IMG/VR virus record: IMGVR_UViG_3300028372_000001
DNA length: 64,000 bases
Direction: 5' to 3' (one strand)
DNA from: an uncultured virus (IMG/VR IMGVR_UViG_3300028372_000001)
Lineage: Duplodnaviria; Heunggongvirae; Uroviricota; Caudoviricetes
Positions 35,387 to 60,869 of this stretch are shown here, piece by piece. Each line of letters begins with the position of its first letter. The stretch's first letter is position 1. Both the position numbers and the translations under genes were made by a program. Below the pieces are notes generated by a model that saw only the letters and a program-made list of their open reading frames with translations, was not told where the DNA came from and ran no database searches.

Positions 35387-35397
35387 GATGGTGTCCC

Positions 35398-42920: not shown

Positions 42921-44066
42921 TCAAAACATCTCAGCAACAGTTTCTCCAATAGCGGTTCCAAGCAAGGGAGGCACTGCGTTGCCTATTTGCTTTGTAATTT
43001 GTGTCCTGGTTCCAAAAAATTGGAAAGTATCGTCAAAAGATTGAAGCCGAGCTCCTTCTCTTGGTGTGAGTGCTCTATCTAGCACAGGATGGATGCAACG
43101 GTTTGATGCAGGATGAACAAAGTTAACGGTGATGGTTACTGCCGGATGGTCCGCATCAAGTCGGCTATAACAGCTACTAAATCCGCTAGTTATGAGATGC
43201 TTAGGAATACAGTTTATATTCTTTCCTGAATGCTTAATAATCTCAAGCATCTTATTGGAGTGAGCGGTGGCTATATGTAGCTCTAAAATTTCTGAACTTT
43301 CCCTTCTATCCTTTTGGTATTGATTCTGTGGCGGCATGGAGTATTCACTGGCAATTTCACCTGATGAAATAGGAGGAAGGTCACTTATTGCATCCATAGC
43401 AGACAATGCATCTGGTAGGATTTGCTCCTCAAATAAATCAGGTTCTCGCGGTGCAAGGATTCTAACCTTGTCCCGATAGCCAATTGTCGAGCCTTTGTAA
43501 AAATGAGTAGGAGTTGGAAATAATATCTTCCCTCCCTTTTGAACCCCAATCATGACGAACCTTTCGCGCTTTTGAGGTACACCGAAATGTGCTGCATTAA
43601 GTAGTTTCCAATCGGTTTCATACCCGATTTTTTTAAAGCAATCTTGCATTTTTTCTAGCGTTGTTCCGCCTTTGTGTGTGGCAAGCCCAACAACATTCTC
43701 TAGAATGAAAACTTTCGGCCTGAAATAATTAACGAAAGAAGCGTATTCCTCAAAAAGCGAGTTCCTGGGATCATCTTCTTTAGACGACCTAAAAGGCCTG
43801 ATGGATGAAAAGCCTTGGCAGGGAGGCCCTCCAACGAGAACATCTAACTGATCCCTTTTAACTCCCGTTATTTCCTCTACTTCGTGCCGTCTTAATTGCC
43901 GTATATCTTTACATATGCCGATTCCGGCTCGGTGGTTCAGCTTAAATGTTTCGACAGAGGCTGGAAGCACGTCAATACCGAGTTTAACATCAAAATTTGC
44001 TTGCTTGGAGTTTTCCATGCCCTTGGAAAATCCCCCGGTACCGCAAAAAAGATCAAATACTTTCAT
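42921..44066 (-). CDS. DNA (cytosine-5)-methyltransferase, bacterial R-M type
   Basis: DLFCGTGG, GGPPCQGFS, ENV, PQKRER, REGARLQSF, QIGNAVPP. Confidence 0.95.
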   Translation of the reverse strand: MKVFDLFCGTGGFSKGMENSKQANFDVKLGIDVLPASVETFKLNHRAGIGICKDIRQLRRHEVEEITGVKRDQLDVLVGGPPCQGFSSIRPFRSSKEDDPRNSLFEEYASFVNYFRPKVFILENVVGLATHKGGTTLEKMQDCFKKIGYETDWKLLNAAHFGVPQKRERFVMIGVQKGGKILFPTPTHFYKGSTIGYRDKVRILAPREPDLFEEQILPDALSAMDAISDLPPISSGEIASEYSMPPQNQYQKDRRESSEILELHIATAHSNKMLEIIKHSGKNINCIPKHLITSGFSSCYSRLDADHPAVTITVNFVHPASNRCIHPVLDRALTPREGARLQSFDDTFQFFGTRTQITKQIGNAVPPLLGTAIGETVAEMF

Positions 44067-44164
44067 AAGGTTATCTCGTTTCTCAGCTCCGGTGGAGACT
44101 ATAGTCTCCTAGTCATGATTAGTCAAGTCCAATAAACTTGTTGATTTTCGGCAAGAGATGAAGT

Positions 44165-44362
44165 ATGGCGAAGGATACAGCAGTTACGGCAGCGTTCGTG
44201 GAGTTGGCGAAGAAAATTCGGGAGCAAAAAGGTCTTACCATCGAACAGCTAGCCGATATGGCCGGAGTTCATAGGACCACAATAGGTTTATTAGAACGCC
44301 ATGAGCGCACCCCAACGCTACAAGTAGCAAGTCAGATTGCAAAAGCCTTGAACCTCCTTTAA
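44165..44362 (+). CDS. XRE/C-protein-like HTH regulator, probably truncated
   Basis: IREQKGLTIEQLADMAGVHRTTIGLLER..RTPTL; divergent from the MTase. Confidence 0.75.
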   Translation: MAKDTAVTAAFVELAKKIREQKGLTIEQLADMAGVHRTTIGLLERHERTPTLQVASQIAKALNLL

Positions 44363-44615
44363 TATATTATATTCTCCTATATAAATTTTAAATCACAGCG
44401 GCCCGGCTCTGATTCTATTAGTCATTATCTATTCCTTTCACAATTTATTTTATGGTTTACATTTAAATAACATTTAAATAAAGAGTGTATCGCTTAAGGC
44501 CCGGCTCTGATTCTAATCATCGGAGTTATCCAAGTTAGCGGTGAGGCTGCTTAGGGTGAGCCCCGTAACCCGAGAGCGCTTACTATACCAACGGGAGTTC
44601 AGTGGGTCAAGTGTT

Positions 44616-44957
44616 TTAACGCGTGACGCCGATCATTTCCTGACCGCTGACTTCGTTGAGCCACACCCCGTAATACTTACCGGATGATTTTTCTTCATGC
44701 CACTCGACACGCTCTATATTGTCCTTCATGAAAGTCTGAGTGAACTCACTCGACAGGGCTGACGATCCAGTCTGCCCTCGGACATTGAAGATGGTCCGCT
44801 CGGCGTCAAGGAGCTGACCTTGAAGTTTCTGTTCTGCGTCCGGGTCAACATACATTGCAACCCTGCTACCATTGAGGCCGACCACCACACAGAGCGTTAC
44901 AGCATGCTGGTATTCGTACATGGTCGGCCAGTTACCAAGCTCTTCGGGATAATCCAT
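44616..44957 (-). CDS. Hypothetical protein
   Basis: GGAG RBS. Confidence 0.5.
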   Translation of the reverse strand: MDYPEELGNWPTMYEYQHAVTLCVVVGLNGSRVAMYVDPDAEQKLQGQLLDAERTIFNVRGQTGSSALSSEFTQTFMKDNIERVEWHEEKSSGKYYGVWLNEVSGQEMIGVTR

Positions 44958-44989
44958 GATTGTCTCCAGTTGATGCGGGTAATTTACAC

Positions 44990-46120
44990 CTACATGATAA
45001 GTTTGTCAAGAAGTTTACGACGCTCAACAAAAATTGCATCGCTGATTTCCTTGCCCTTCAGCGAAGCCTGTTGATCTTCACTGAGGTTATCGAAGCCAAC
45101 CAGTCCCGCTTGAACGACAGCAGACACCACATCATTCGCTATGTGTGCCGCGTCTTCAGAATACGTCATCCACATCATGTATTCCCATTGAATGCACAAC
45201 CGGTCTATGTTATGACTGCTGTCCAGCCTGAAGCGTTTCATGACACCCACCAGAGCATCGAGCAATTCTTCACGACCATCGGTGCGGAACGCTTTGGACA
45301 TAGCTACAGCGAACACGCATTGGTTACGCAGGATGCTCGGCATTTTGGCAGCAACGGCAAAATCGTGTACAACATCTTCGTTCCAGTCTTGGAAGATTGC
45401 CATCCACCGCACCACTTTCGAAGCATCACGGGAGCCAAGTGATCGAAGATTGCAGATAGAGTCCAATAGCACCGAAGCAACATCAGCACCGAACAGTGGC
45501 TCCAGAGCGCCAGCCTCATCGAGCACTTCAATGAAGCGATGGGGATGCGGCTCCATTATGGCATGCTGGCATTCCTTCCATACACGCTCTTTCACAAGCG
45601 AATCAAGGTCACCGTCTGCTACCATGTCCATCATGAAAGCCATCGTCTCCGGGGCAACACTGAAGTTGAAGCGAGCCGCGAATCGTGCAGCACGCAGGAC
45701 ACGCAACGGGTCTTCACGGAATGCAGGCGAAACGTGACGGATGATACCATCAGCGATATCAGCACGACCATTGAAGGGGTCGATGATCTTATCGTCCCAG
45801 CTTCGAGCGATGGCGTTCATCGTGAAGTCACGACGCACCAGATCCTCTTTCAGCGTCACATCTGGAGAGTGGTCCGTCTCGAAGCCTTTGTGACCAGAGC
45901 CAACCTTACGCTCCGTGCGGGCGAGCGCAAACTCATCACCATTTTTATCGAGGAACACGGGGAAGTCTGCACCAACATGCTGAAACCCAGCACGCAGCAT
46001 TTGCTCGGGCGTAGCATTGACTACGACGAAATCGAAATCGTGCGGCTCCCGACCCATGAGTTCGTCACGAACAGCGCCGCCGACCAGAAAGATTTTTGAG
46101 TTGTCAAGAAAGCGGCGCAC
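44990..46120 (-). CDS. cca: tRNA nucleotidyltransferase (CCA-adding enzyme, class II)
   Basis: LVGGAVRD, DFDFVV, ALARTERK, DLVRRDFTMNA, EDPLRVLRAARF, ERVWKE. Confidence 0.93.
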   Translation of the reverse strand: MRRFLDNSKIFLVGGAVRDELMGREPHDFDFVVVNATPEQMLRAGFQHVGADFPVFLDKNGDEFALARTERKVGSGHKGFETDHSPDVTLKEDLVRRDFTMNAIARSWDDKIIDPFNGRADIADGIIRHVSPAFREDPLRVLRAARFAARFNFSVAPETMAFMMDMVADGDLDSLVKERVWKECQHAIMEPHPHRFIEVLDEAGALEPLFGADVASVLLDSICNLRSLGSRDASKVVRWMAIFQDWNEDVVHDFAVAAKMPSILRNQCVFAVAMSKAFRTDGREELLDALVGVMKRFRLDSSHNIDRLCIQWEYMMWMTYSEDAAHIANDVVSAVVQAGLVGFDNLSEDQQASLKGKEISDAIFVERRKLLDKLIM

Positions 46121-46462
46121 AGTATGTCTCCAGTTGATTCCAGTATATTACTCGAAGTCGGTAGGTTCATAGGGTCGGCTCAGGTGATCCCGTTGGATAG
46201 CTTTGACCACCTTTGCACCGAAGTCCCTGTCGTCTTCGATTTCGTGCAGGTGGTCATTCAGAACCAAAATTGCACTGTTGAACCCATCAGATTTCTCCAA
46301 GGTAAATGATTGAGTCGGCCCGACAATCTTCAATGGTATTGAAGAGCCCTTCGGACATTGCTTCCCCATCGTTTACGTCATGCCACTCCCAACCCTGAAA
46401 AGTTGGCCCGTTGTCAACATAGAAGAACCGAATGTCGGGAGTGTTATGTTCGATACCATTTA

Positions 46463-47050
46463 TCATATTTCCCCCTGCTTACGCAGTCTGCGGCATTTGT
46501 AGATGTATTGTACCGTAGTGGTCTCGGGTACGTCCAGTTCCTCGGCAATCTTTTTTGCAAGCTCATCGACACGATTGGACTTGTCGAAGGTCTCAGGATT
46601 GTCCAACATGTACTCTTGAACCTTGTTGAACGTGCCCCCGCTTCGACCACGCTTGGCTCCACCCTCACCGTCCTCATCGGAGACCAGACCAGCGTACTTC
46701 ACAGCTTCGGCCTTTGCGTACTCGACTGCCTCCATGTAGTCTTTCAGGGTGAAGGGGAGCATACTCGTCCACTCACGACCCTTGATATGCTTGTGATTGA
46801 CCGGAGCATCTTCGTCGATGCCTTCGGTAATGGATTCCTTGCGGTGCTTGAATTCGATCAGCACCAGCTTGCAGGTTGCCAGACGGGCAACGATGTGATC
46901 GGTGGGGGTCTCGAACGGACCCTCGACCATATCACGCAGTAGGCGGCGGACGGGACCAGCCTTCATCCCCATGATTTCCTGCACGACACCCGACCCAGAG
47001 AAGGGCGTGATGCGGGAATTCTTGATATGCTGCTCGAAGATGTCGGGCAT
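46463..47050 (-). CDS. Hypothetical protein with a C-terminal HTH-like module
   Basis: GGAG RBS and promoter. Confidence 0.6.
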   Translation of the reverse strand: MPDIFEQHIKNSRITPFSGSGVVQEIMGMKAGPVRRLLRDMVEGPFETPTDHIVARLATCKLVLIEFKHRKESITEGIDEDAPVNHKHIKGREWTSMLPFTLKDYMEAVEYAKAEAVKYAGLVSDEDGEGGAKRGRSGGTFNKVQEYMLDNPETFDKSNRVDELAKKIAEELDVPETTTVQYIYKCRRLRKQGEI

Positions 47051-47783
47051 TTGATTCTCCAGTTGATGCCGATATTATACAGCTATGCTTTACGGTATGC
47101 AAGCATATATTTGCGACTGCTTCGTACTATTTCACGATGAGTCGTGGCATATTCATAGTGAGAAGCCATTTCTCGCTGCTCTCGCGTTATGTCAAGGTCT
47201 TTTTTAGGGGATGTTCGGCCATTCCCCCAACCGCCAGCCTAGTATAAGCTATAAATTATAAGGAATCAATCTTTTTTACAGATATTTTTCGACCACCATT
47301 CCCCTGCCTTTCCACCGGGGAGTGTGTGACGATATCGACGATGAGCCCGTGAGAGCGCCTCTCGGTATGCTGCGGGTTGTTTGTCGGTCATAATCATGAG
47401 ACTTCTTCCCCGAAAATTTGCTCGTGTGAATAGTTCAGGAGTGCTAGAGTGCAGTCTAGATCAGCGAAGCCGCACCCACGCAACAGCCAGTAGGAGTACA
47501 ACGGCCCACACCACGGTTTAGCCTTCATCTGCAGGCACCGGGACGGCGATCATCACGCTACATCCTGATAGGTTTCCACTGGCGGAAGGCTGTCAACCCA
47601 TTCGTCCATCTCGTCCATGTACTGGAAAGTGTCAAAGCCACAATCCATACAGAAACCACTGAGGGTATCGATGGAACCTTCACAGTCTACACACTTGATC
47701 ATGACAGTCTCCCTTGAAGTGATGAGCCCATTTTACGCTAGTCGGGGCACCTTGTCAAGTAGAAACCGGACCCCGAATTTACA

Positions 47784-48542
47784 TCACGCGGCCTTTCGTG
47801 CTATCAGATTGGCGTCACGAACGAAGCCGCTAGTATCATACCGGGCCTTCCCCTTTGCCGTCAGTGCCACAATGGCACCACCATTCGGGTCGAAGAAACG
47901 CACGTCAGACGTATCGCCATCCACCACCGGAAAGCCCATCCACTGTGAAGGCTTCGCATCTTTTTTGCGAAGGTTCATAACCACGGCAACATTGTATCCT
48001 TCACGAATCGCCATGAACGCATCGGTATCGTTATCCTCTGCAAGACTGAAAGTCAAGTGATAGTTGGGGAGAGCAATGGCAGACTTGCGCCCGCGAATTT
48101 TTGTGTAATCATAGAATTGCAGGTCAGGGAAGGCGACCATGAGATTGCGATGATTCACACCATCCACAGTCACGCGGTACTTTTCCCATGCAATGTCAGA
48201 CGTGCCATTGAGACGCACTGCGGGAACCATGCCTTTGCGGGCAGCTTTGCGAATCAGACGCTGAATGTCAGCGACAAGGGTATCCATGAAGCTGTCGCGA
48301 TCCTCATGGAGCCACAACGTCCGATTGATACGTCCAGCAACAACGGGTGCCATGACCCCACGCCCTGCCGTATACAGGCATGCTGCCTTGCATCCGGCTG
48401 ATGCTTTCGGGCACACTTCATAGCCTGATACGTCAGCCGGAGCGAGATACAGCACTCCCGTGAGTATACCGAGCTTTTCACCTTTGACAGTCTTGGCGTC
48501 AGTGGAGATGGTCAGGAGATTCTTGCGCTGGACGTGTGCCAT
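47784..48542 (-). CDS. GP88-like Cys-cluster phage protein
   Basis: VCP.AS.GC...CL..AGRG, RLNGTSDI.WE, QFYDYTK, NYHLTFS. Confidence 0.7.
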   Translation of the reverse strand: MAHVQRKNLLTISTDAKTVKGEKLGILTGVLYLAPADVSGYEVCPKASAGCKAACLYTAGRGVMAPVVAGRINRTLWLHEDRDSFMDTLVADIQRLIRKAARKGMVPAVRLNGTSDIAWEKYRVTVDGVNHRNLMVAFPDLQFYDYTKIRGRKSAIALPNYHLTFSLAEDNDTDAFMAIREGYNVAVVMNLRKKDAKPSQWMGFPVVDGDTSDVRFFDPNGGAIVALTAKGKARYDTSGFVRDANLIARKAA

Positions 48543-49437
48543 GTTCGTGCTCCGTTTCGTTTCGATGGGGTCCATTATACGGAATAATTTGTTTATTGCA
48601 AGGTATTGACAGAAAAAAGTTTGGGTGTATGGTTCGCTGACATTGAGGAGGTTTCCCATGGATTTTTTCGACATTCTAATGAGTTTCGGCCTTTTGGCTG
48701 TCGCGATTCTTGCAATCGTGGTATTCTTGGTTGCGGCGCTCGTATCCGTGTTCACCGGTACAGGTATCGTTCGAGTGCTGAGCAATATGTTCGTCGCGCT
48801 GTTCGAACAGTATTGGCAGTATGTGCTGGTCTTGGGTATCTTGGGTATCTTGGGTGGACTTTCTTACATCTGGGTGGTATGATACGCAACAGGCAATATC
48901 ACCCCCAATCAGGAGCATGGCATGGTACATTGGAAATATCACGGTAACGGTTGAGTTCGAGGTGGATGACGAACACGCTGCCGAAAACCATCTGAACAAT
49001 ATTGGCAATGATATCGTGGATAGTTACAGGGACTACGGTACCACCGAGTCGAGCATTCACGACTACTCGGAATTTGAAAATGAGTAAAAAGCTAACGCAA
49101 ACGTTAGCCTTTGGAGATACAGTATGTGTGTAGAACTTGGCTATGACGTGTTTGAGACCGACGATGGGCTTCAGCTTCAGAAAGAAGATGAGAAGTCTCC
49201 GTATGAAAATGACATCGAAGCAGCCATTGCGTGTCTGAACGACGCATGGTATGGTGATGTTCGATCCCGCAACATGATTGCTGCGGTGCTGACGCAGGAT
49301 TCCAAGTACCTTGAGGGTTGACAAATGAAGTATGGGGCTATAACTTGGAAAGGCGTGTGGAAGCACCGCGCTCGTAGGGCACTCAAGCGGCTGGCTCGAA
49401 AGCAAGAGCGTCAAGCGGCAAAGAAGGAGTTGATGTA

Positions 49438-49809
49438 ATGTCGGAGTCAACAGAGTGTAATTGTGGCCATGCCAAGCTCATGTACTACTGCCTCATGTGT
49501 CCGGTGTGTGAGATGGCACAACGGAGGATGGTTACTACCATCAATTTCATCGAGGCGATGTATAAGACCGAAGCTTTGAATGGGCTTGTGCACCGCCAAG
49601 ACAACATCTCAGATGAATTCTGGAAGCAAATCATTTATTGGGATTTGATTAAGGGTAATGACACCACGTTCCAACATGATTTCGTGGATAGGTTGATCGA
49701 AGACGACACGGTTTGGAAGTATCCGGGGGCGAAAAAATTCACGGAATTGTTCGTCAACGCCCTTGACTTGCAGCACAAAGAAAGGATCATATGGATAGTT
49801 TCGTGGTAA
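49438..49809 (+). CDS. Hypothetical Cys-rich protein
   Basis: Operonic ORF. Confidence 0.5.
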   Translation: MSESTECNCGHAKLMYYCLMCPVCEMAQRRMVTTINFIEAMYKTEALNGLVHRQDNISDEFWKQIIYWDLIKGNDTTFQHDFVDRLIEDDTVWKYPGAKKFTELFVNALDLQHKERIIWIVSW

Positions 49810-49848
49810 GAGTTGACACAAGAAGGTAGGTGATGTACAGTATCATAC

Positions 49849-49992
49849 ATAGCCTAGTGGAATTTCAAGAGTAGCGAGGTCTCGTTTAGGGTAGCTCCCA
49901 GTTCCACTAGACTATTTTATTTGAGGTTTGGTAAGTGCCCTGTAGTAACGGGGGTGCCAGTCAAAGGTCGTTGATGGGGGCACTTTGACACA
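49849..49992 (+). ncRNA. Two structured RNA hairpin domains after a sigma70 promoter
   Basis: TTGACA-N17-TACAGT at 49813-49841; stems ctagtggaa/ttccactag and aagtgccc/gggcactt. Confidence 0.45.
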
Positions 49993-50000
49993 AGTTCATT

Positions 50001-50189
50001 GAACCGGTAGTTTATATTCTCCTAGACCAACGGGAGACGAAGGGGCCAAGCTAGCTCCGGGCTGTTTAAAACACACCTTGACTGTAGCGGTGAAGGTTTG
50101 ATTAAGGATACGTCGGTGATCCTTAGCACATGGGGATGCGCCAGTTGGCCCCATGAAGTGAAGAGGTTAGAAGCCTTTCCGGTTCGCCA
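50001..50189 (+). ncRNA. 189-nt enlarged tRNA-like RNA
   Basis: Acceptor GAACCGG/CCGGTTC-G-CCA; T-arm agagg-ttagaag-ccttt; extra hairpins in the D and variable regions. Confidence 0.7.
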
Positions 50190-50233
50190 ATTTAAGTGTT
50201 GACATGAGTCGATTAACCGTCTACACTGTGCAG

Positions 50234-50920
50234 CATGAGTTAGGGAGTTGCGTCCCTTAATGATGTGAGTACTCTCACGAAAGAGAGGGAGGCAGCCGGA
50301 TCGACGGTAGCGAAGCATCAGACTCTATCCGAGGTGGCCTCCATAAGAGTGGGGGAGATTCAAAGGCCGAGGTCGGGAGGCGCTTTGGAACGATAAGAGT
50401 GGGTGAGTCACTCGCCCGAAACAAGGAAAGCCTGATTATGCTTCGGCCTTAAATGGTTCAAGACAAAGGGATTGCCAGTGACAATATAATTAAAGGGCAG
50501 TAAAGGTTGGCAGTTTTCTACGATAAACTGCCTTTGGTGAGGTGCTAGAAAGGACCGGCCCCGTCACCGCGATAACAGGTCCACCAAAATGTGTTTAAAG
50601 TAATTAATGTGGGATAGCAGTAGACCCACCCCCTGAAACTAGGGTTAATAAATACTGTCGATAACTTTGCCCCGTGAAGCGTCGCCTTTTGGGTTGGATG
50701 GCTAAACCCAAATGAGTTACCGGACTCTAAAACCGGATAGAGGTGTCTGGTTGCCTCGAAAATATGAGCCAGATAGGCGGAGGTGTGAAGGCGACCGTAC
50801 ATCAAAGCTGAATCTAATTTTAGCGGAGCCCTTTGTAGTTGGGTGGTTAAACTACCATAATTAGTAGCCGGGAGCGTCACGTCCCCACCTGAGCGGCTAA
50901 AACCGCAACGTGACCGAATT
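50234..50920 (+). ncRNA. Large structured ncRNA of about 690 nt (GOLLD/ROOL-like size class)
   Basis: Own TTGACA-N17-TACACT promoter; no credible ORF; many hairpins and long-range helices. Confidence 0.65.
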
Positions 50921-50936
50921 GAGTGTTGACTAAGCT

Positions 50937-51092
50937 ATGGAACCAACTGATAAGCAAATCAAAGAACATATGGAGTCAACTGGTTTAAATTTTTATAATG
51001 CCAGAGAAGAACTCCGTGAAATGGAATATAAAGACGAACACCCCGACAAACCAAGCGATATGAGTTGGGGCGATTATTGGAAAACATATTAA
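50937..51092 (+). CDS. 51-aa hypothetical protein (MEPTDKQIKEHM...)
   Basis: Short AT-rich ORF filling the gap between RNAs; not in the ORF track. Confidence 0.45.
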   Translation: MEPTDKQIKEHMESTGLNFYNAREELREMEYKDEHPDKPSDMSWGDYWKTY

Positions 51093-51101
51093 CAAGGTTA
51101 T

Positions 51102-51222
51102 CGAGAGTGTACGAAAAGCAGCATAGTAGAATAGCTATTCTCTATGCTCTGGCAACCCGGCGGCACTTGAAAGCCGTGCTCTTAGCGGAGCTTGTAGGTT
51201 CGATCCCTACCACTCTCGACCA
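51102..51222 (+). tRNA. Atypical tRNA-Ser(UGA)-like RNA with an 8-bp acceptor and a hairpin inserted in the D-loop
   Basis: cgagagtg/cactctcg-A-CCA; T-arm gtagg-ttcgatc-cctac; long variable arm; anticodon region acttgaaa. Confidence 0.7.
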
Positions 51223-51289
51223 ATTTCCCTTGACAACCATTCAATAATCCCTTATAATTTATAAATTATAAGCAGGAGACACCCCCCCA

Positions 51290-52432
51290 ATGAACGAACT
51301 TCAAACAACTTTGTACTCGAACCTCATGGCGTTGTGTGATGGGGATGAGGCGTTCTTCTATTCGGATCAAGTGTTGACCCCGAAGACCCGTCCGGGTCAT
51401 TTTCGCATCTTCAACTATCGTCTGGCATCCTATACCCAGTGGCTCCATCCCGGTGCTCTGGAGTGCCGTGGCGTGATGTTCCTCATGGACTCGGAATTCA
51501 AGAATCCGATGTCTCTGATGTCGTGGCCGTTCGAGAAGTTCTTCAACCTCAACGAGAACCCAATGACCATGGGCCTCGATATGAATGATGTTCGCTCGAT
51601 TCAAGCAAAGATGGACGGTTCGCTCATCAGCACGTTCTACTTCGATGGTCATGTTCGAGTCAAGTCGAAGGGATCACTACATTCGGATCAGGCAGTAGCT
51701 GCACAAAGATTGCTTGAATCACCGAAGTGGGATGCACTGTACAACGCATTGGAACAACATGTAATGTTTATGGATCACACTGTCATCATGGAGTACACTG
51801 CTCCTGATAACCGTATCGTGGTTCCGACAGAAGAGCCGACTCTTACTGTGCTTGCGGTTCGAGACAACCGTACTGGTAAATACGTGGGTGATCTTCACGG
51901 GTATATGGTAGAGTACATGACTGACGAAATTATCAACGATGTTGGTGAGGATATTCCGGCGTTCATCGAGGACATTCCGAAAATGACCGGCATCGAGGGG
52001 TTTGTGCTGACCATGGCATCAGGCCAGCGTGTGAAGATCAAGACTGATTGGTACGCGGCACTACATCACTTGAAGGACTCAATCAACTCTCAGCGTCGGC
52101 TGTTCGAGTGTGCAGTGAACGATGCAACTGATGACCTCAAGGCTCAGTTCTGGGATGATTTGCAAGCTGTCGCAATGATCAACCACATGGAAGCCAAGGT
52201 GGCATCCATATACAATCACATGGTGGATCAGGTAGAACGGTTCTACCAGCGGAACAAGCACATGGAGCGTAAGGACTTCGCTATCAAGGGGCAGGCTGAA
52301 CTTGACAAACTGTGCTTCGGGCTGGTGATGGCTAAGTATTCCGGTAAGGAAGTGGACTACAAGGCTACGCTCATCAAGCACCGTAAAAACTTCGGGATCA
52401 AGGATGATCCTGAAATGGGAGCAGAACAATGA
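51290..52432 (+). CDS. rnlA: T4 Rnl1-like RNA ligase
   Basis: IFNYRLASY, ECRG.MF, EKFFNLNEN, KMDGSL, EY.AP.NRIV, IEGFV, KIKTDWY. Confidence 0.92.
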   Translation: MNELQTTLYSNLMALCDGDEAFFYSDQVLTPKTRPGHFRIFNYRLASYTQWLHPGALECRGVMFLMDSEFKNPMSLMSWPFEKFFNLNENPMTMGLDMNDVRSIQAKMDGSLISTFYFDGHVRVKSKGSLHSDQAVAAQRLLESPKWDALYNALEQHVMFMDHTVIMEYTAPDNRIVVPTEEPTLTVLAVRDNRTGKYVGDLHGYMVEYMTDEIINDVGEDIPAFIEDIPKMTGIEGFVLTMASGQRVKIKTDWYAALHHLKDSINSQRRLFECAVNDATDDLKAQFWDDLQAVAMINHMEAKVASIYNHMVDQVERFYQRNKHMERKDFAIKGQAELDKLCFGLVMAKYSGKEVDYKATLIKHRKNFGIKDDPEMGAEQ

Positions 52433-52769
52433 TGAAACGTAAAGGCCACCGCAGTGATCGGGAGAAACTGCTTGATCAAGTGTTTAACCATCTGAAAGGT
52501 ATTGGGGTGTGGCGTGGCGACGAGTTTCATAGTTTTTGTAAGTGGGCAAAGGGTAAACCCAGTGATGAACTCAAACGCGAAATGGAGTATTGACACTCCC
52601 ACACCATAGCGATACAATGATCATCCACTCACCAATGGCTGCATCGGGTGATCCTGCAACGGATATCCCACACCCACCGCTTGATGCCAGCAGTTCTATC
52701 TCCGAGAACGAAGAAAAGGGTTGCAACAACCCTTTTCTTTGTGTATAATTCCTTATAATTTATGGGAGG

Positions 52770-53087
52770 TTGAATATGAACAAGGGGCTGCACGTACTTA
52801 TCGATGATATGCGGACGTTGGATGTGGATATCATTTCCCGTAATGGTCAGGTTGCTATGCGCCTCATGGAAGAAGGTGAAGTCAGCCACCTCTACATGGA
52901 CAATGACCTCGGTGAGAACGTTTCCATGGAAGGTATTGACATCCTCAAGTGGGCGAGGGATAATAAAGTCATGCCCCCCAACGTAACGATTGTGTCGGCA
53001 AATATCGTGTGTCGAAAGCGAATGGAAGACCTTTTGCGCTTCGACATGGAATACATTCAGGATGGCAATTGGTGGAGAAAGCATTGA
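52770..53087 (+). CDS. Cyclic-phosphate-processing receiver-like domain
   Basis: LIDDMR...LYMDNDLG....GIDILKW...IVSAN. Confidence 0.65.
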   Translation: MNMNKGLHVLIDDMRTLDVDIISRNGQVAMRLMEEGEVSHLYMDNDLGENVSMEGIDILKWARDNKVMPPNVTIVSANIVCRKRMEDLLRFDMEYIQDGNWWRKH

Positions 53088-53787
53088 GTTCTGTTATGTA
53101 TGAATCGAAATCAAAAATAAACCTGAACTATATGCTCTTGCTTCTGATCATGGCGAATAGTTTTCTTGGGTGGACATGGGCGTTGAGCATCGTAGAATGG
53201 GGTGTCAATATAATGGGCACGATTTCTATTACGCTCATGGTGTTTATGCTGTTCTACCTAAAACGTGCTGTTCGTGACGTTATCATCAATGGCAAGTTAT
53301 CGGAATTGCGAGTGAATTTGAGGCTGGCGGATTTTCGAGCGAAAGAACCGACGGCACGCATCCAGAAAGTGGTTTACCTTTTGATCACACTGCTGGCAAT
53401 TCACACCTTTTACATCAACGAATTGTTTTACACGATGGTCGTAATTGTGCTATTATATACCGTCACTCACGTTGTGAGTGCGTACTACAAAAATCTTGTG
53501 ATGACCGCAAAGGAGATTTAATCACATGAGCATGAGCATCATGAAGTGGAATCAACAGCTTCTTAGCACGACGGAAGCACTGATGAGGGCACGTCAGGAT
53601 GGTGACGCTGACCTCACTGAAGAACTGGAAGCTGAACTGGCTGAAATTGAGGAAGCACTCGAAGCCATCGAAGCCGACAACGCTGACGATCACCGTTTCG
53701 GTCGAATGTGAAAAAAGTCGAGGGAAAGGGTTGACCTCTCCCTCGACTGATGTATAATAGACTCCATCAACACGACGGAGACAGTAC

Positions 53788-54369
53788 ATGATCATTCGTA
53801 AGCGCGGTGCTGTCACGACTTCCTTCCCCCGGAAGCAGGAGTTCATCAGTAAGGTTCGTGATTGTCAGGCACTTGCTCGTTATAAGTTCTTTGACTTCAA
53901 CCTCTTCGATGAAGACCTTCCCATCGTGTTTGTTGCGAAGGGCGCTAATGCTGGAAGCGCCCGGTGGAGACGTGTTCGTGAAGGTATGACCACCAAGATG
54001 GTCTACAACCTCGAATTCAGTATCGAAGCAATCGGCATCGAGTGGGATGACATGACGGGTGATACCATCCCGCACGAAATGGCTCACATCGTGGACTTCG
54101 TGATCAACGAGAAGAGCAACAACCACAATCGTGTGTGGCAGAACATTGCTCGGCGGCTCGGATGCTCAGGTAAGCGAACCCATGATTACCAGATCACGAA
54201 GGCACGCCAACACAAGAAGTACGTCTACGTGGCTACGTGTGGCAAGAAGCATCTAGTGGGTGGTAAGGTCCACAACAAAATTCAACGCGGTTCGGTATAT
54301 ACAGACCGCACAACTGGTGGTAAACTGACTGCCGATACATTCACCGGGATTTGTGCCTACAACAGCTGA
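53788..54369 (+). CDS. SprT-like metalloprotease
   Basis: AGSA, TIPHEMAH, H...WQ..A..LG, H, C.C. Confidence 0.85.
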   Translation: MIIRKRGAVTTSFPRKQEFISKVRDCQALARYKFFDFNLFDEDLPIVFVAKGANAGSARWRRVREGMTTKMVYNLEFSIEAIGIEWDDMTGDTIPHEMAHIVDFVINEKSNNHNRVWQNIARRLGCSGKRTHDYQITKARQHKKYVYVATCGKKHLVGGKVHNKIQRGSVYTDRTTGGKLTADTFTGICAYNS

Positions 54370-54381
54370 TGGAGGTTTGAT

Positions 54382-54953
54382 ATGATTGAATATACAGTTA
54401 AGGTTGATGTTAATGGTGATCGTGGGTGGTATTTGAATGGAAAGGTTCATAGGGAAGATGGTCCGGCTATTGAGCGGGCTGATGGTTCTCGTTGGTGGTA
54501 TTTGAATGGAAAGGTTCACAGGGAAGATGGTCCTGCTGTTGAGCGGGCTAATGGTTCTCGTGCGTGGTGGGTTAATGGAAAACGCCATAGGGAAGATGGT
54601 CCTGCTGTTGAGTTTGCTGATGGTTCTCGTTTTTGGTATTTGAATGGAAAGTTTCATAGGGAAGATGGTCCGGCTATTGAGTGGACTAATGGTGATCGTT
54701 CGTGGTATTTGAATGGAGAGCTTCACAGGGAAGATGGTCCTGCTGTTGAGTTGGCTAATGGTGGTTGTGTGTGGTATTTGAATGGGAAACGCCAAGGGAA
54801 GATGGACCGGCTATTGAGTGGGCTAGTGGCACTCGTAAATGGTATTTGAATGGGACGCAACTTACGGAAGCTGAGTTCAATGCTAGACAACACCCTACCT
54901 GTAATGGTAAGGTAGTAGAAATTGATGGCAAGAAATATAAACTGAGGAAGTGA
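54382..54953 (+). CDS. 23-aa repeat protein (WYLNGK.HREDGPA.E x6) frameshifted near 54794
   Basis: 69-bp repeats; the sixth copy lacks one base. Confidence 0.75.
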
Positions 54954-54955
54954 AC

Positions 54956-55529
54956 ATGTCCAACACACATCGCAAATCGTCGCCCGATCACCGTTACGTT
55001 CGTATGTGGGGATATCACCACACAGAATGTTGATATCATTGTCAATGCCGCCAATGAGACCCTTCTGGGTGGTGGCGGTGTTGACGGGGCAATCCATGCC
55101 GCAGCCGGTCCCGGACTTCGCGAAGCCTGTGAAGAGCTTGGGGGATGCCGCACTGGCGCAGCAAAGGGCACGCTGGCATTCGGGATTACTCAGGCAAAAA
55201 TTATCTATCATACGGTTGGCCCTCGTTATTCTGATCATCCGCCCATGGTGTCCGAAGAGTATCTGGATGCTTGCTATGACGTATGTCTGGACCTTGCTGT
55301 CAAGAGCAAGTACCGCTCGGTTGCATTTCCGTCGATCAGCACTGGTATCTACGGATACCCGCTCGAACTGGCAGCCAAGGTGGTCGCGAAGAAGTTCGCA
55401 TGGTATACCCGTCATGCCTTGGAAACCACGAACTTGCGCGAGATTCGTATGGTGTGCTATGATCTGTGTGATCTACAGGCATATACCAATGCCTTCGCCG
55501 CCGAAATCGAAGCCACCGGGCGGCATTGA
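54956..55529 (+). CDS. Macro domain protein (YmdB/Tk.4-like ADP-ribose hydrolase), apparent frameshift just after the start
   Basis: Manual translation: GDIT...DIIVNAAN..LLGGGGVDGAIH.AAG...HTVGP...VAFPSISTGIYGYP. Confidence 0.85.
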
Positions 55530-55944
55530 TCAACGCTCCACCTTAACCGATGAGGAAGTGAACATGGAACCCGAAATCGAACGTATCATCCGTGAGTTTG
55601 GACTGGACAACAATTCGTTCACCCGTGATGCTCTCGAAGAGATGTATATGGTTGGCGCTCGTGACTCAATCGGTAACTTGGATATTCAACTCGACGCCCT
55701 TGAGTTTTTCGGTGAAGACGAGTAAGATTCGATAATTCACAATATACGCGGAGTCGTTAACATGTTCTTTGAAGTCACCATTCTATCTGCAATTGCATTT
55801 ATGGGTTTCGTCTTGTCCTCCACGCTCCTTACCCGTCAAAAGTCGGCGGTGCAATTTCTTGTGTGGGGTAGTATGGTCCCTCATCACTTTTATTTGTGCG
55901 ATTGTGGCCTATACAACATCTAGACTTACTAGCGTGCATTCGTA

Positions 55945-56020
55945 GGGCCTGTAGCTTAATGGTTAGAGCAACGCACTCATAATGCGCAGGTTCTCGGTTC
56001 AAGTCCGAGCAGGCCCACCA
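55945..56020 (+). tRNA. tRNA with CAU anticodon (probably Ile2, possibly Met)
   Basis: GGGCCTG acceptor, loop ctcataa, CCA. Confidence 0.88.
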
Positions 56021-56442
56021 ACAGGAGAATGTGAAATGCAAGACAAAACCCTCGACAAAAACCCTCGATACCATTATCGGTGAGTTTGGATTGGATGCCA
56101 CGGAAACCACTCGTAAAGCTCTTGTAGAGATGTTTTGGACCGGCGCTCTTCAAGCGGCTATGGCACCCATTGTCGAAGAACAAGCCTTCGATTACTTCAG
56201 GGAGAAATCGTGATGTGGAACAAGATTGACAACTATGACTATTCGGTGGTTCCCGAGGGTAAGGTGAAACTCAGGGTTGCACCCGCTGTTGATCCTGATG
56301 CTTCCCTTCTCAAACTGGATGCGGAATGCACCCACTACACGTTCTTTGGAAAGACACAGGCTCGGTTCGAGCTTGACAATGGCGGCGCTGGTCTGTATTA
56401 TCTCGATCTTGCAGACTACGTTATTATGTTCTGGAGCAATGA

Positions 56443-56838
56443 TTGATGATGATTTCTGAAAACGCATACCAATGTGTGCTACTCGGTGAAGAACTGGGTG
56501 ATATCATGAATAAGGGCAATGATCTTGCTACGTGGGTCCCACTTGAGTACCTTCTCAAGCGTTATCATGGGGAATATGCGTCAGAGTTTCATGGCGATGT
56601 AACCGCTACCATGAGTCTTGCAATCAGGCTCATTGCGTATATGATGGGGCACGAGGATGAGGAAATTGATACCCTTCTCGACATTGACCAAAAACACTTC
56701 AGGTGCCCGTGCGGTATGACTCATGAGCCCGGTGATGAAGATAAGCAGGTGTACTGGGATTACTTTACTCAAGCCGCTGTTCGTGAGAATATAGCCATCA
56801 TCAAGGCGAACCACGAGGCTGCAAAAGCCCTTCGATAA
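56443..56838 (+). CDS. Hypothetical protein
   Basis: Operonic ORF. Confidence 0.5.
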   Translation: MMMISENAYQCVLLGEELGDIMNKGNDLATWVPLEYLLKRYHGEYASEFHGDVTATMSLAIRLIAYMMGHEDEEIDTLLDIDQKHFRCPCGMTHEPGDEDKQVYWDYFTQAAVRENIAIIKANHEAAKALR

Positions 56839-56898
56839 CTGGAGCATAATCAGCCATAAAGTGTAGGGTAAATATACTCACCACAGTTGGAGAGTATA

Positions 56899-57354
56899 AT
56901 GGACCGTGATGCGGCTATTAGGAAGATCATAAAGCTGATTGACCTTTTTCATGGGTCGGATGCCACTGAAGAAAGAGAGACCGCAAAGAGACAGGCGCTA
57001 TGGTTGTCTGAGAAGTATGATGTAACCCGACATGAAATCTGGCGGACCCGTGGTGGTCCAGCATACGGGCAGAAGGCACCAGCACCTATATACAATAGGC
57101 CAGAGTCTCGGTCCCACCGGTCACAGTCATGGACAAGACCACAGTCGAGGCCACAGCCTAAACCACAACCACAGCCTAAACCACAACCACAGCCTAAACC
57201 ACAACCACAACGCCCCAACGCGGCGATGGATAACGAATTTAAAGATAGACATGAAGCTCCGGCTGAGATAGTATATCGTAGCTTCATAGGGAAGCCAGAG
57301 CCAAAGAAGCCAGAACCAACACCAAAGGAATATTGTCCAACGGAATTTTATTAA
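56899..57354 (+). CDS. DUF2786-like N-terminus with PQPK repeats
   Basis: AIRKIIKL......EERETA...A..L..KY; 18-bp repeats. Confidence 0.5.
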   Translation: MDRDAAIRKIIKLIDLFHGSDATEERETAKRQALWLSEKYDVTRHEIWRTRGGPAYGQKAPAPIYNRPESRSHRSQSWTRPQSRPQPKPQPQPKPQPQPKPQPQRPNAAMDNEFKDRHEAPAEIVYRSFIGKPEPKKPEPTPKEYCPTEFY

Positions 57355-57359
57355 CCAAT

Positions 57360-57445
57360 GCCGGGGTGGCGGAACTGGTAGACGCGCTGGATTCAAAATC
57401 CAGTTCCCTTGTGGAGTGAGGGTTCAAGTCCCTCCCCCGGTACCA
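57360..57445 (+). tRNA. tRNA-Leu(CAA)
   Basis: Cloverleaf with long variable arm, loop ttcaaaa, CCA. Confidence 0.95.
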
Positions 57446-57466
57446 ATAAATTTAGAGTAAAACATA

Positions 57467-57868
57467 ATGAATAAGTTGACTTCGTACATTCTCATCAACG
57501 GTACATCCTTCGGTATCCTCATCTGGGCCGGGATCAGTGGAAGTTCATTTGCACATGGACTGTGGACGGCAACCAGCATGATAACCCTTATCATGAGCGT
57601 TATTTGTGGCCTTGTTACTCTCGGTCCATGGGCTGATACCCTCCTGCCCGCCATGGCGAAACAAGACACTTTTGAGATTCCGACTCGAAGCGTTCCACTA
57701 AAGGTAGATATTATGCTAGACTTGGTTACCTTCTTGGTCTGTTTCGCCTTTGAGTTCTATTTCACGGCAGGAATCTGGTTGTTCCTTACGTTCTTCGGCA
57801 ACGCGTTTGTAAGTAAGATGTTTGACCCCAACAGTTTCATTCAACCGGAGAATAAAGACTCCTTTTAA
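57467..57868 (+). CDS. Membrane protein
   Basis: Several hydrophobic segments. Confidence 0.55.
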   Translation: MNKLTSYILINGTSFGILIWAGISGSSFAHGLWTATSMITLIMSVICGLVTLGPWADTLLPAMAKQDTFEIPTRSVPLKVDIMLDLVTFLVCFAFEFYFTAGIWLFLTFFGNAFVSKMFDPNSFIQPENKDSF

Positions 57869-57889
57869 GCTAACGCAAACATTAGTATG

Positions 57890-57931
57890 CTAAGCTATTG
57901 GTCGTAGGTTCGAATCCTACCGAGCGCGCCA
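57890..57931 (+). pseudogene. 3' half of a tRNA (probably Arg-UCU)
   Basis: ctaa-gctat-tggtc-gtagg-ttcgaat-cctac-cgagcgc-g-cca; no 5' half upstream. Confidence 0.7.
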
Positions 57932-58271
57932 AATCAATCTTCGTGGAGAACCACATGACAACCTACCTCCAAGACCCAGAACGTCTCGATACAAACGTCA
58001 CCATCAAAATGCCCGAGAAGATTGTTGTCGAATATGTACACCCCAAGGGTTGGGCCATCCTCCTTGATGGCAACCTCGTGGGCACGATTACGGAGGGTGG
58101 CACGGACTACGTTAGTGATCACCCCATGGCAGAAGCCTCCCATTGCAAGTATTTTGCTGACGCGGGCGACGCTACCGATTGGTTGATCAAACGTGACCTT
58201 CTCAAGACCAAGGCGTATGCCGAACTCCACAAGAAAGTCAAGAAGGCAAAGAAGAAAGAAGCGAAAGAAAC

Positions 58272-58853
58272 GTGAAAAACCTATTCGATAGCATCTGGCT
58301 TACAGTGTTGATGGCTGTTGGTACGTACATCATTGTCATCATTGGTGCCATCATATTCCAGACGTTGCCGCCAGCTACAACCACACTGGAACTTCCTCCC
58401 ATGGAAGATTCACCCAATCGTAATTGGGGTGTTGTATGGGATGAAGAAGACCTGTATTGTCTGGCCCTCAACATCTATTTCGAAGCACGTGGTGAACCGG
58501 TGGCAGGCAAGTATGCAGTCGGTGATGTGGTCATGTATCGTACACAGAATGCCAACTACCCGAACACCATATGTGGAGTGATCAAGGATGGAGTTCATTA
58601 TGCGTGGAACCCATCGATCCCTATACCCAATCGATGTGCGTTTAGTTGGTACTGCAATCAACAAAGCGATGATCCTGTTGATGGTGACGCGTTTGAAGAA
58701 GCATTGTTTATTTCTTACGATATTTTGACTAACCCAATGTATCAGAGCGCTGTTAAACCGGCATTGTTTTATCATGCTGGTTATGTTGAGCCTTATTGGG
58801 CAGCATCACAAACATTTGTCAAGCAAATCGGGCACCATTTGTTTTATTTTTAA
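58272..58853 (+). CDS. SleB/Hydrolase_2 cell wall hydrolase
   Basis: CLALNIYFEARGE...G..AV..V...R...YP.TICGV; C.FSWYC; ALFYHA.YV.P.W; IGHH.FY. Confidence 0.9.
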   Translation: MKNLFDSIWLTVLMAVGTYIIVIIGAIIFQTLPPATTTLELPPMEDSPNRNWGVVWDEEDLYCLALNIYFEARGEPVAGKYAVGDVVMYRTQNANYPNTICGVIKDGVHYAWNPSIPIPNRCAFSWYCNQQSDDPVDGDAFEEALFISYDILTNPMYQSAVKPALFYHAGYVEPYWAASQTFVKQIGHHLFYF

Positions 58854-59329
58854 TCCATATAAGGGGTTGACATTTAAGCGCTCCTTGTTATATAGTAAGT
58901 ATTCATGTCGCCATCCAAGCATCATGAAAGCTCAAGTGGACAACACGTGTTGTCTTGTTTTTAACCCAGCAATAAGGCAGACCAAATGCGTCTTACCTAC
59001 GTAAACCACGGCACCAAATTCTCCTTCCGAACTGACAAGATGACCAAACATCCTGATGGCAATCGTGGAGCCACCATGCTCCAAGTGCATGCGGAACTCG
59101 TTCTCCAGCAGAGTAATGAATGCATCTATATCCTCGGTGAGGATGGTCGCCAACTCGATATCCAGACCGTGAAGTACTGCGCGAAGACGGGGGCTTTCCC
59201 TATCCATTGATCAACCACCGGGGTGGCCATAAACCACCTTCGGTTAGATCAAAAAAACATCTTGACATTATACACTGTATAATGTAGTATTTAATAGCGC
59301 AATTCCGCGCACACTAGGAGATTTACAAG

Positions 59330-60730: not shown

Positions 60731-60842
60731 TGCCTCTTGCTGCTGGTCTTCTGGCCTACGCCATTACCAGTAATGTGGCCTTGGCTATTTTGTGGTTCTT
60801 GATAGTGTGGTTAATCTGTGATTAATACAAAGGCGAGGCATG

Positions 60843-60867
60843 AAAAAGGGGGCTTTCGCCCCCTTTT
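60843..60867. terminator. Bidirectional intrinsic terminator
   Basis: aaaaagggggc-tttc-gccccctttt between convergent genes. Confidence 0.8.
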
Positions 60868-60869
60868 CA

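What the first reader, a model, noticed from the sequence alone, without database searches (positions are those of the whole stretch)
50234..50920. Large ornate ncRNA candidate of about 690 nt
Seen: promoter TTGACA-N17-TACACT (50199-50227); long-range complementary pairs ctctatccg (50323)/cggatagag (50734), acaaaggg (50463)/ccctttgt (50829), gtcgcctt (50681)/aaggcgac (50788) and gtcacgt/acgtgac near the 3' end; local hairpins ctctc-acgaaa-gagag, gggtgag/ctcgccc, ggcagttt/aaactgcc and tttgggtt/aacccaaa. Known: GOLLD and ROOL RNAs are large phage RNAs often found next to tRNAs. I cannot assign the family by eye, so it may be new.
Basis: partly seen in the sequence, partly recalled or inferred. 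Interest (0 to 1): 0.75.

Follow-up and report, generated by a model that had tools for sequence, protein, structure and literature searches.

The report
Strain-variable gene-free RNA cassette in phage
A lake phage carries, behind a strong promoter and next to its RNA-repair genes, a 690-base stretch with no gene that probably makes folded non-coding RNA, but it has no known relatives and sister strains carry a different insert in its place, so it is an unproven candidate rather than a new giant RNA class.

Summary
The promoter at 50199-50227 belongs to a motif found 27 times in the window against 1.0 expected. Unlike 16 of those 27 sites, no Shine-Dalgarno/ATG gene follows it. No Rfam family matches, and no reading frame matches a protein family.

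The case for one large ornate RNA is weak:
- The fold is better than shuffles (z -2.7 to -3.2), but 2 of 12 coding controls reach -2.6.
- No homologue was found in any collection, so covariation could not be tested.

New findings:
- In other lake samples, 50299-50908 is replaced by 900 other bases, bounded by promoter/stem-loop repeats.
- The stretch contains diverged internal repeats, one hairpin pair with 3 compensatory changes.
- tRNA-like elements ending in CCA flank it (50001-50189, 51101-51222). It lies upstream of a T4-type RNA ligase.

Best reading (about 0.45): an accessory, modular non-coding RNA unit in a phage RNA island. It resembles T4 RnaC/RnaD and PeSL cassettes in kind, and is not GOLLD or ROOL. 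Expression and function are untested.

The parts
49813..49841 (+). Promoter P1 (TTGACA-N17-TACAGT). No ORF of 40 codons or more starts within 420 nt downstream.
49933..49990 (+). Module M1a, a two-hairpin unit paralogous to M1b inside the cassette.
   Evidence: Second hairpin: 10 of 10 pairs kept in both copies, 1 compensatory and 2 one-sided changes. The alignment score of 29 is not significant on its own.
50001..50189 (+). tRNA-like element A. Closing helix GAACCGG/CCGGTTC, T-arm-like AGAGG-TTAGAAG-CCTTT, then G and CCA, followed by ATTT and the next promoter.
   Evidence: (z -2.29, 6 of 200 shuffles as good)
50199..50227 (+).
50234..50298 (+). Shared leader holding a 50-nt hairpin (50247-50296). 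It is conserved in strains that carry the other cassette, and the replacement begins right at its base.
   Evidence: helix probabilities 0.58-0.96
50299..50908 (+). 610-nt ORF-free cassette, replaced by 900 other bases in a contig of run X8. Contigs of X12 and X13 diverge at the same left junction.
   Evidence: (no coding signal)
50323..50742 (+). Predicted 420-nt multibranched domain closed by CUCUAUCCG/CGGAUAGAG.
   Evidence: closing helix probability 0.86; z -3.68, 0 of 100 shuffles. The bounds were chosen after seeing the fold.
50332..50389 (+). Module M1b. Contains the 15-nt repeat ATAAGAGTGGGGGAG, whose second copy is at 50393-50407.
   Evidence: (D1)
50675..50725 (+). Module M2a. Hairpin TTTGGGTT[GGATGGCTA]AACCCAAA at 50688-50712.
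   Evidence: (probability 0.85)
50748..50792 (+). Module M1c, a weaker third copy of M1.
   Evidence: A score of 33 is reached as the best score by 14 of 100 whole-region shuffles.
50822..50872 (+). Module M2b. Hairpin GTAGTT[GGGTGGTTA]AACTAC at 50835-50855. Its 5' flank TTAGCGGAGC..TTGTAG is also found in the tRNA-like element C.
   Evidence: (D4)
50876..50914 (+). 3' minihelix GTCACGT...ACGTGAC enclosing GCGG-CTAAAA-CCGC. It spans the right junction of the cassette. It is followed by CCGAATTGAGTGTTGAC, an 82% copy of the block in front of P2.
   Evidence: (D2, D5)
50937..51092 (+). 51-codon ORF matching the C-terminal 50 positions of phrog_23875 (E 7e-12). It has no clear Shine-Dalgarno sequence.
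51101..51222 (+). tRNA-like element C. 8-9 bp acceptor-like helix, canonical T arm GTAGG-TTCGATC-CCTAC, then A and CCA. It carries extra hairpins and is not called as a tRNA.
   Evidence: (z about -4, 0 of 200 shuffles). A C>T variant at 51140 would keep its pair as G-U.
51230..51258 (+). Perfect consensus promoter P3 (12 of 12) in front of the RNA ligase gene.
51290..52432 (+). T4-type RNA ligase 1 gene. It is followed by a cREC_REC (cyclic-phosphate processing) gene at 52770-53087.

Best explanation
Window 50234-50920 is one transcription unit of a phage RNA island (about 49810-51260). It probably yields one or more folded non-coding RNAs, not a protein.

Shown:
- The window is phage DNA from lake metagenomes.
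- A sigma-70-type promoter of a strongly over-represented class sits at 50199-50227 with no gene behind it.
- The unit has a 5' hairpin leader, a 610-nt ORF-free body and a 3' minihelix.
- The body contains diverged copies of short hairpin modules that also occur in the flanking non-coding DNA.
- tRNA-like elements ending in CCA lie on both sides.
- In co-occurring strains the body is exchanged for 900 unrelated bases, exactly between the promoter/stem-loop and a degenerate copy of the promoter-upstream block.

Inferred:
- The unit is transcribed early by host RNA polymerase.
- The transcript is trimmed at the tRNA-like or minihelix ends by tRNA-processing enzymes, as in phage tRNA clusters.
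- The cassette is an accessory module swapped by recombination between promoter/stem-loop repeats, as with PeSL cassettes.

Speculative: because it adjoins RNA ligase 1, a cyclic-phosphate-processing gene and a CCA-adding-type enzyme gene (44990-46120), the RNA may act in the conflict over tRNA cleavage, for example as a decoy or binding platform.
For: - Promoter class: 27 sites vs 1.01 expected, 0 of 100 shuffles.
- 16 of the 27 sites are followed by an ATG ORF of 40 codons or more within 21-33 nt. P1 (49813) and P2 (50199) are not; the only candidate is a 43-codon GTG frame without a Shine-Dalgarno sequence.
- No coding signal. All stop types occur in all + frames. None of the 17 stop-to-stop frames tested has a Pfam or PHROG match at E 0.001 or better; the 14 lying inside the ORF-free stretch have only two PHROG hits, at E 0.15 and 0.35. 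The 129-codon minus-strand frame has no homologue.
- Fold: + strand z -2.72 (cassette) and -3.18 (50234-50920), 0 of 100 shuffles each, stronger than the minus strand (-2.20, -2.51). The 420-nt domain has z -3.68.
- Internal repeats: the best self-alignment scores 40, against a shuffle best of 28.8 +/- 3.4 (maximum 39; 0 of 100). Ten window pairs score 29 or more, against 0.88 in shuffles (0 of 100).
- The M2a/M2b hairpins keep 7 of the 9 loop bases while 3 of 8 stem pairs change on both sides.
- tRNA-like 3' ends: among 28 loosely defined T-arm-like hairpins, 9 are followed by 7-8 nt, one base, CCA and A. Five of these are the tRNAs and four are not: 50162, 51194, 57904 and 49571.
- Strain replacement and its boundaries. 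17-nt repeat at 50187 and 50914.
- Context genes.
Against: - No homologue was found anywhere, so there is no conservation or covariation between genomes.
- No RNA data (one search listed no RNA holder; this is no evidence either way).
- The energy z-score is within the range of coding DNA of the same phage: 2 of 12 controls at -2.58 and -2.65.
- The 3' third folds no better than chance (z -1.59).
- Apart from M2a/M2b, the single repeat alignments (scores 29-33) are reached as the best score by 14 to 47 of 100 whole-region shuffles.
- The two-sequence covariation counts are weak by construction (65 of 500 and 260 of 500 shuffles).
- The cassette is dispensable in nature, which also fits non-functional DNA.
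- No terminator follows the unit.
- Rfam and default ARAGORN do not call the flanking tRNA-like elements.
Confidence: 0.45

Rival explanations
1. It is a single large, ornate structured RNA of a new class, in the GOLLD/ROOL size range.
For: - Length and ORF-free state.
- Phage context with tRNA genes within about 5-7 kb.
- No Rfam match.
- A predicted 420-nt multibranched domain with z -3.68 whose minimum-energy and centroid folds nearly agree.
- Runs of 8 nt or more of complementarity enriched, 7 vs 2.23.
Against: - No homologues, so no covariation.
- The unbiased whole-length z equals the best coding controls.
- The body is a mosaic of repeated 50-nt modules shared with neighbouring elements.
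- It is replaced wholesale between strains, unlike a conserved core RNA.
- The 3' 178 nt fold at chance level.
Confidence: 0.12
2. It is non-functional filler: decayed duplicates of neighbouring promoter, hairpin and tRNA-like sequences left by recombination in a hyperplastic region. It may be transcribed but has no role.
For: - Dispensable between co-occurring strains.
- Built of diverged copies of flanking sequence.
- The 3' end looks like a degenerate tRNA-like end with CGA in place of CCA.
- Energy signal no better than coding DNA.
- No relatives found.
Against: - The pieces of this cassette seen in two other runs (50311-50493 in X8, 50585-50844 in X12) show no differences.
- The promoter is intact.
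- Stem changes between M2a and M2b are compensatory while the loop is kept.
- The rest of the window is gene-dense, so a 1.1-kb gap is unusual.
Confidence: 0.25
3. It is a long structured 5' leader that controls the 51-codon ORF at 50937-51092.
For: - No terminator between the cassette and the ORF.
- The ORF has no clear Shine-Dalgarno sequence or working promoter of its own.
- In the other strain a gene occupies the same slot upstream of this ORF.
Against: - A 700-nt leader for a 51-codon ORF is out of proportion: the 16 sites with a typical ATG gene have it 21-33 nt after the -10 box.
- The ORF is present with either cassette, so it does not depend on this leader.
Confidence: 0.1
4. It acts at the DNA level (replication origin, packaging or recombination site), or it encodes a protein that was missed: the minus-strand 111/129-codon frame, or a recoded frame.
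For: - Direct and inverted repeats.
- An open minus-strand frame at 50545-50934.
Against: - The minus-strand frame has no homologue, family match or promoter.
- All three stop codons occur in every + frame, so a changed code does not open one.
- There are only two or three copies of any repeat and no AT-rich unwinding tract.
Confidence: 0.06

Closest known systems
GOLLD (RF01998) and ROOL (RF03087) large phage-associated RNAs
   Same: Size range, ORF-free state, phage location and nearby tRNA genes. ROOL averages 581 nt, and both are often near tRNAs and in prophages (PMC5737381, passages read).
   Different: No match to either covariance model even at E 10 or below. No conserved relatives were found. 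This stretch is modular and strain-variable, not a conserved fold.
Phage T4 RnaC and RnaD (species 1 and 2 stable RNAs of the tRNA region)
   Same: Small stable RNAs of unknown role transcribed from a phage tRNA region (PMC3014915, passage read; T4 annotation). T4 RnaC folds with a canonical T arm plus extra hairpins, like the flanking element 51101-51222. A homing endonuclease gene (segB) sits among the T4 tRNA genes, which recalls the gene-for-RNA swap seen here.
   Different: The T4 RNAs are 119-139 nt, while the unit here is about 690 nt. Sequence similarity was not tested. Processing at tRNA-like ends is recalled for T4 and only inferred here.
PeSL (promoter-early stem-loop) cassettes of T4-type phages
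   Same: Strong sigma-70-like promoters joined to stem-loops, lying at the borders of insertions, deletions and replacements between close relatives (PMC2839356, abstract and section 13 read; PMC4122927, abstract read). Here the replacement starts at the base of the post-promoter hairpin and ends at a degenerate copy of the promoter-upstream block.
   Different: PeSL cassettes carry ORFan protein genes, while this one has no ORF. The phage is not shown to be T4-type. Only two copies of this particular repeat were seen.

Membership tests
GOLLD RNA (RF01998) | Match to the family covariance model | tested here: not met
   No match at gathering score or at E 10 or below.
ROOL RNA (RF03087) | Match to the family covariance model. 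[quoted passage not shown] | tested here: not met
   No match. The consensus fold could not be compared beyond the model search.
OLE, RNase P, group I and group II introns | Match to the Rfam models | tested here: not met
   Only three chance-level hits to unrelated families (E 2.9-9, 12.9-13.8 bits against cut-offs of 38-100).
tRNA (RF00005) | Cloverleaf recognised by the covariance model or by ARAGORN | tested here: not met
   No tRNA call in 49400-51400. ARAGORN finds 51102-51222 only at a lowered threshold, with a 37-nt 'intron' and poor D and anticodon arms.
tRNA-like 3' module (T arm stacked on an acceptor helix, ending NCCA) | T-arm-type hairpin directly followed by 7-8 paired nt, one base and CCA | tested here: met
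   Met by the flanking elements 50001-50189 and 51101-51222. The candidate's own 3' end (50876-50914) has the layout but ends in CGA, with a 4-bp stem and 6-nt loop, so it is only a degenerate match.
T4 RnaC/RnaD-type stable RNAs | Stable processed RNA from a phage tRNA region | not testable with these tools
   No RNA data. The structural analogy covers the flanking element only.
PeSL-bounded mobile cassette | Sigma-70-like early promoter plus adjacent stem-loop | tested here: met
   Promoter. 50-nt hairpin at 50247-50296.
PeSL-bounded mobile cassette | Lies at the border of a replacement between close relatives, with repeats on both sides | tested here: met
   Replacement of 50299-50908 by 900 nt. 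17-nt repeat at 50187 and 50914, 82% identical.
PeSL-bounded mobile cassette | Cassette carries an ORFan protein gene; host phage is T4-type | tested here: not met
   No ORF. Lineage is unresolved: the best RNA ligase matches are about 45% identical.

The most novel reading that the evidence does not exclude
The cassette encodes a new kind of large accessory phage RNA, assembled from tRNA-derived and hairpin modules. Strains swap it like a gene. It works with the adjacent RNA ligase 1, cyclic-phosphate and CCA-adding genes, for instance as a decoy or scaffold against host nucleases that cut tRNA.
Probability: 0.12. Interest if true: 0.75.

Novelty: new variant of a known kind. Interest (0 to 1): 0.4.

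Why it matters
If the RNA is real, a phage can fill an accessory-gene slot with a 600-nt non-coding RNA in place of a protein gene. It would also tie such RNAs physically to tRNA-like elements and RNA-repair enzymes. That would give a concrete, testable locus, with two natural alleles in the same lakes, for asking what large phage RNAs near tRNAs are for. That question is still open for GOLLD, ROOL and T4 RnaC/RnaD. If it is filler, it is an ordinary by-product of modular shuffling.

Tried and rejected
**Homologue searches, all empty**
- blastn (distant mode) of 49800-51300 against phages and plasmids.
- megablast of 44000-64000 against phages.
- Flank pattern in viral contigs: 0 matches.
- Flank pattern in metagenome contigs: only one contig, identical over 6027 of 6027 bases.
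- Two-motif scan: 0 matches.
- Motif scans that gave 81, 5 and 54 loci. None resembled the region beyond the seed motif.
- Loci near relatives of the RNA ligase: 10 loci at 23-29% identity, not examined further.
- Loci near relatives of the 123-codon ORF: none.
- Earlier notes of this scan, by place and by sequence: nothing.
- No whole genome is held for this window.

**Expression**
- No RNA holder was listed.

**Population variation**
- The four runs laid gave only three substitutions outside the cassette and none inside it, so there are no covariation data.

**Ideas rejected**
- Intron splitting a DprA-like gene: rejected. No upstream exon frame matches, and no intron model matches.
- CsrA-type GGA sponge: about 17 GGA counted by eye against about 16 expected from base composition. 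This was not computed by a tool, and the idea was dropped.
- Targets complementary to the repeated 9-nt loops: apart from the two loops themselves, three other sites fit the pattern in the window (5 matches vs 1.43 expected; 2 of 100 shuffles reach 5), none in an evident target. Not followed up.
- Tandem repeats: none in the stretch; the one row returned, 51252-51271, lies downstream at promoter P3.
- Additional copies of M1 or M2 elsewhere in the window: none.

**Unused**
- The genome-contig scan and one viral-contig scan were not used, for lack of a pattern likely to be conserved.

Full report
**What the window is.** No whole genome is held for it. The DNA of 49800-51300 is held by lake-water and salt-lake metagenome runs; 24 runs were listed, none on record as RNA. 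The genes are those of a large phage:
- T4-type RNA ligase 1 at 51290-52432
- a cREC_REC cyclic-phosphate-processing domain at 52770-53087
- an SprT-like protein and a cell-wall hydrolase
- a GP88-family protein
- a poly(A)-polymerase/CCA-adding-type enzyme at 44990-46120
- DNA methylases and an ArdC-like protein
- five tRNA genes

The phage has no close relative in the collections searched. The best RNA ligase matches are about 45% identical in named phages and 23-29% in IMG/VR.

**Checking the observation.**
- The promoter is convincing. TTGACA-N16-18-TAYNNT occurs 27 times in the window against 1.01 +/- 1.05 in shuffles, 0 of 100.
- Sixteen of the 27 sites are followed within 21-33 nt by an ATG ORF of at least 40 codons, usually with a GGAG-type ribosome site. 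The sites at 49813 and 50199 are not.
- From 49810 to 50936 there is no credible ORF. All three stop codons occur in each + frame. None of the 17 stop-to-stop frames I tested matches a Pfam or PHROG family at E 0.001 or better; the 14 inside the ORF-free stretch give only two PHROG hits, at E 0.15 and 0.35. The 129-codon minus-strand frame has no homologue.
- The long-range complementarities are only mildly more than chance. Runs of 8 nt or more number 7 against 2.23 +/- 1.47 (4 of 300 shuffles reach 7); runs of 9 or more, and of 7 or more, are not enriched.
- In the nested ensemble only the 50323/50734 helix is favoured (0.86). The acaaaggg/ccctttgt and gtcgcctt/aaggcgac pairs get about 0.1 and 0.07. 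They could only be alternatives or pseudoknots.

**Known families.** Rfam gives only the five tRNAs at gathering score. It gives nothing at E 10 or below in 49400-51400. On 50228-50925 alone it gives three chance-level hits (E 2.9-9). It gives nothing in 49810-50235. The stretch is therefore not GOLLD, ROOL, OLE, RNase P or an intron by these models.

**Folding.**
- The + strand folds better than dinucleotide shuffles: cassette z -2.72 and 50234-50920 z -3.18, 0 of 100 shuffles each. The minus strand gives -2.20 and -2.51. One search gave -2.34 with 20 shuffles.
- Twelve 610-nt coding segments of the same window, folded on their sense strand, give z from +1.76 to -2.65. Two of the 12 are at or below -2.58. 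Energy alone does not separate this stretch from coding DNA.
- A predicted 420-nt domain (50323-50742) has z -3.68 (0 of 100), and its minimum-energy and centroid folds nearly agree. I chose its bounds after seeing the fold.
- The 3' 178 nt are at chance level (z -1.59).

**A strain-variable cassette.** I laid contigs of four runs on 49400-51700.
- One 3783-nt contig of run X8 matches 49672-50298 and 50909-51700 but has 900 other bases in place of 50299-50908.
- Contigs of X12 and X13 diverge at the same left junction with the same continuation. It shows a Shine-Dalgarno-like motif and an ATG about 20 nt in.
- Pieces of the present cassette also occur in X8 (50311-50493) and X12 (50585-50844) without differences. 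Both alleles therefore coexist.
- The left junction is at the base of a 50-nt hairpin that follows the promoter.
- The right junction lies inside the 3' minihelix. It is followed by CCGAATTGAGTGTTGAC, an 82% copy of the 17 nt in front of promoter P2 (D2).
- This is the pattern described for PeSL cassettes of T4-type phages: strong sigma-70-like promoters with stem-loops at the borders of replacements between close relatives (PMC2839356, abstract and section 13; PMC4122927, abstract). Those cassettes carry ORFan genes, and this one has no ORF.
- The only other copy of the window's junctions that I could fetch (L011) is identical and may come from the same data.

**Internal modules.**
- Self-comparison of 49810-51260 in 231 window pairs gives a best local score of 40. 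The best score in shuffles is 28.8 +/- 3.4 (maximum 39; 0 of 100). Ten pairs score 29 or more, against 0.88 in shuffles (0 of 100). Overlapping windows count one alignment more than once, and about five distinct alignments are involved.
- Only the top pair, M2a 50675-50725 against M2b 50822-50872, is significant on its own. Scores of 33, 31 and 29 are reached as the best score by 14, 29 and 47 of 100 shuffles.
- The M2a and M2b hairpins keep 7 of 9 loop bases (GGATGGCTA / GGGTGGTTA). Of their 8 stem pairs, 3 change on both sides and 1 breaks. With two sequences the shuffle control is weak (65 of 500).
- M1 has copies at 49933-49990, 50332-50389 and, more weakly, 50748-50792. In M1a and M1b a 10-pair hairpin is kept, with 1 compensatory and 2 one-sided changes. 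In the full-length fold a different pairing of M1b is preferred.
- Bases 50792-50838 resemble the anticodon-arm to T-stem part of the tRNA-like element at 51158-51197 (score 29; 2 of 300 and 1 of 300 single-pair shuffles).

**tRNA-like neighbours.**
- 51101-51222 has an 8-9 bp acceptor-like helix, a canonical T arm and ACCA (z about -4). It is not a callable tRNA.
- 50001-50189 closes with GAACCGG/CCGGTTC beside AGAGG-TTAGAAG-CCTTT, then G and CCA.
- Of 28 loosely defined T-arm-like hairpins in the window, 9 are followed by 7-8 nt, one base, CCA and A. Five are the tRNAs. The others are at 50162, 51194, 57904 and 49571, the last inside an ORF.
- Both flanking elements are followed by ATTT and a promoter. 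The candidate's own 3' end (50876-50914) has the same layout in degenerate form.
- T4 RnaC, a stable RNA of unknown role from the T4 tRNA region (PMC3014915, passage), folds with a canonical T arm plus extra hairpins. It gets only a sub-threshold tRNA-Sec hit (E 0.92). Missing model hits for such elements are therefore not telling.

**Interpretation.** The best-supported reading is a promoter-driven, non-coding, accessory unit in an RNA island upstream of the RNA-repair genes. The unit is modular and strain-variable. The available evidence does not support a conserved giant RNA. Processing at the tRNA-like ends and any role in tRNA-directed conflict are inferences. Earlier notes of this scan describe similar loci in other phages. 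They are unchecked leads, not support. Without homologues or RNA data, the rival that this is transcribed filler left by modular shuffling cannot be excluded.

Noticed in passing
window 51101-51222 (+): A 122-nt tRNA-like RNA candidate directly after the 51-codon ORF. It has an 8-9 bp acceptor-like helix, a canonical T arm and ACCA, plus extra hairpins and an 8-nt anticodon-like loop. Neither Rfam nor default ARAGORN calls it. It resembles T4 RnaC in design.
   Followed up: partly
window 50001-50189 (+): A second tRNA-like closed element: 7-8 bp closing helix, T-arm-like hairpin, then G and CCA. It ends 10 nt before promoter P2. This part is conserved in the strain that carries the other cassette.
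   Followed up: partly
window 57869-57931 (+): Right after the stop codon of ORF 57467-57868 lies a canonical T arm (GTAGG-TTCGAAT-CCTAC) followed by CGAGCGC, G, CCA and AA. It is a tRNA 3'-half-like element with only a weak 5' partner (z -1.41).
   Followed up: partly
window 49571-49598 (+): A T-arm-like hairpin followed by 7 nt, G and CCA inside the 123-codon ORF 49438-49809, which has no family match. It may be chance, or the ORF call may need a second look.
   Followed up: no
window 28401-37515 (-): The GC-rich block (27-38 kb, 52-59% GC) holds 7 promoters ending in TATATT. The spacers of 5 of them carry GGGTTGGGG-like or the complementary CCCCAACCC tracts, so this is a repeated promoter cassette family, distinct from the promoters around the finding.
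   Followed up: no
window 1-64000: GC content changes in blocks: about 41% for 1-27 kb, 52-59% for 27-38 kb, and about 48-50% for 45-64 kb. This suggests a mosaic genome.
   Followed up: no
window 44990-46120 (-), 52770-53087 (+): A CCA-adding/poly(A)-polymerase-type enzyme gene and a cREC_REC cyclic-phosphate-processing gene flank the RNA island. With RNA ligase 1 they form a tRNA-repair gene set.
   Followed up: no
window 50343-50357 and 50393-50407 (+): A 15-nt direct repeat, ATAAGAGTGGG[G/T]GAG, 50 nt apart inside the cassette. By my own estimate about 0.01 such pairs are expected by chance. No function is known.
   Followed up: partly
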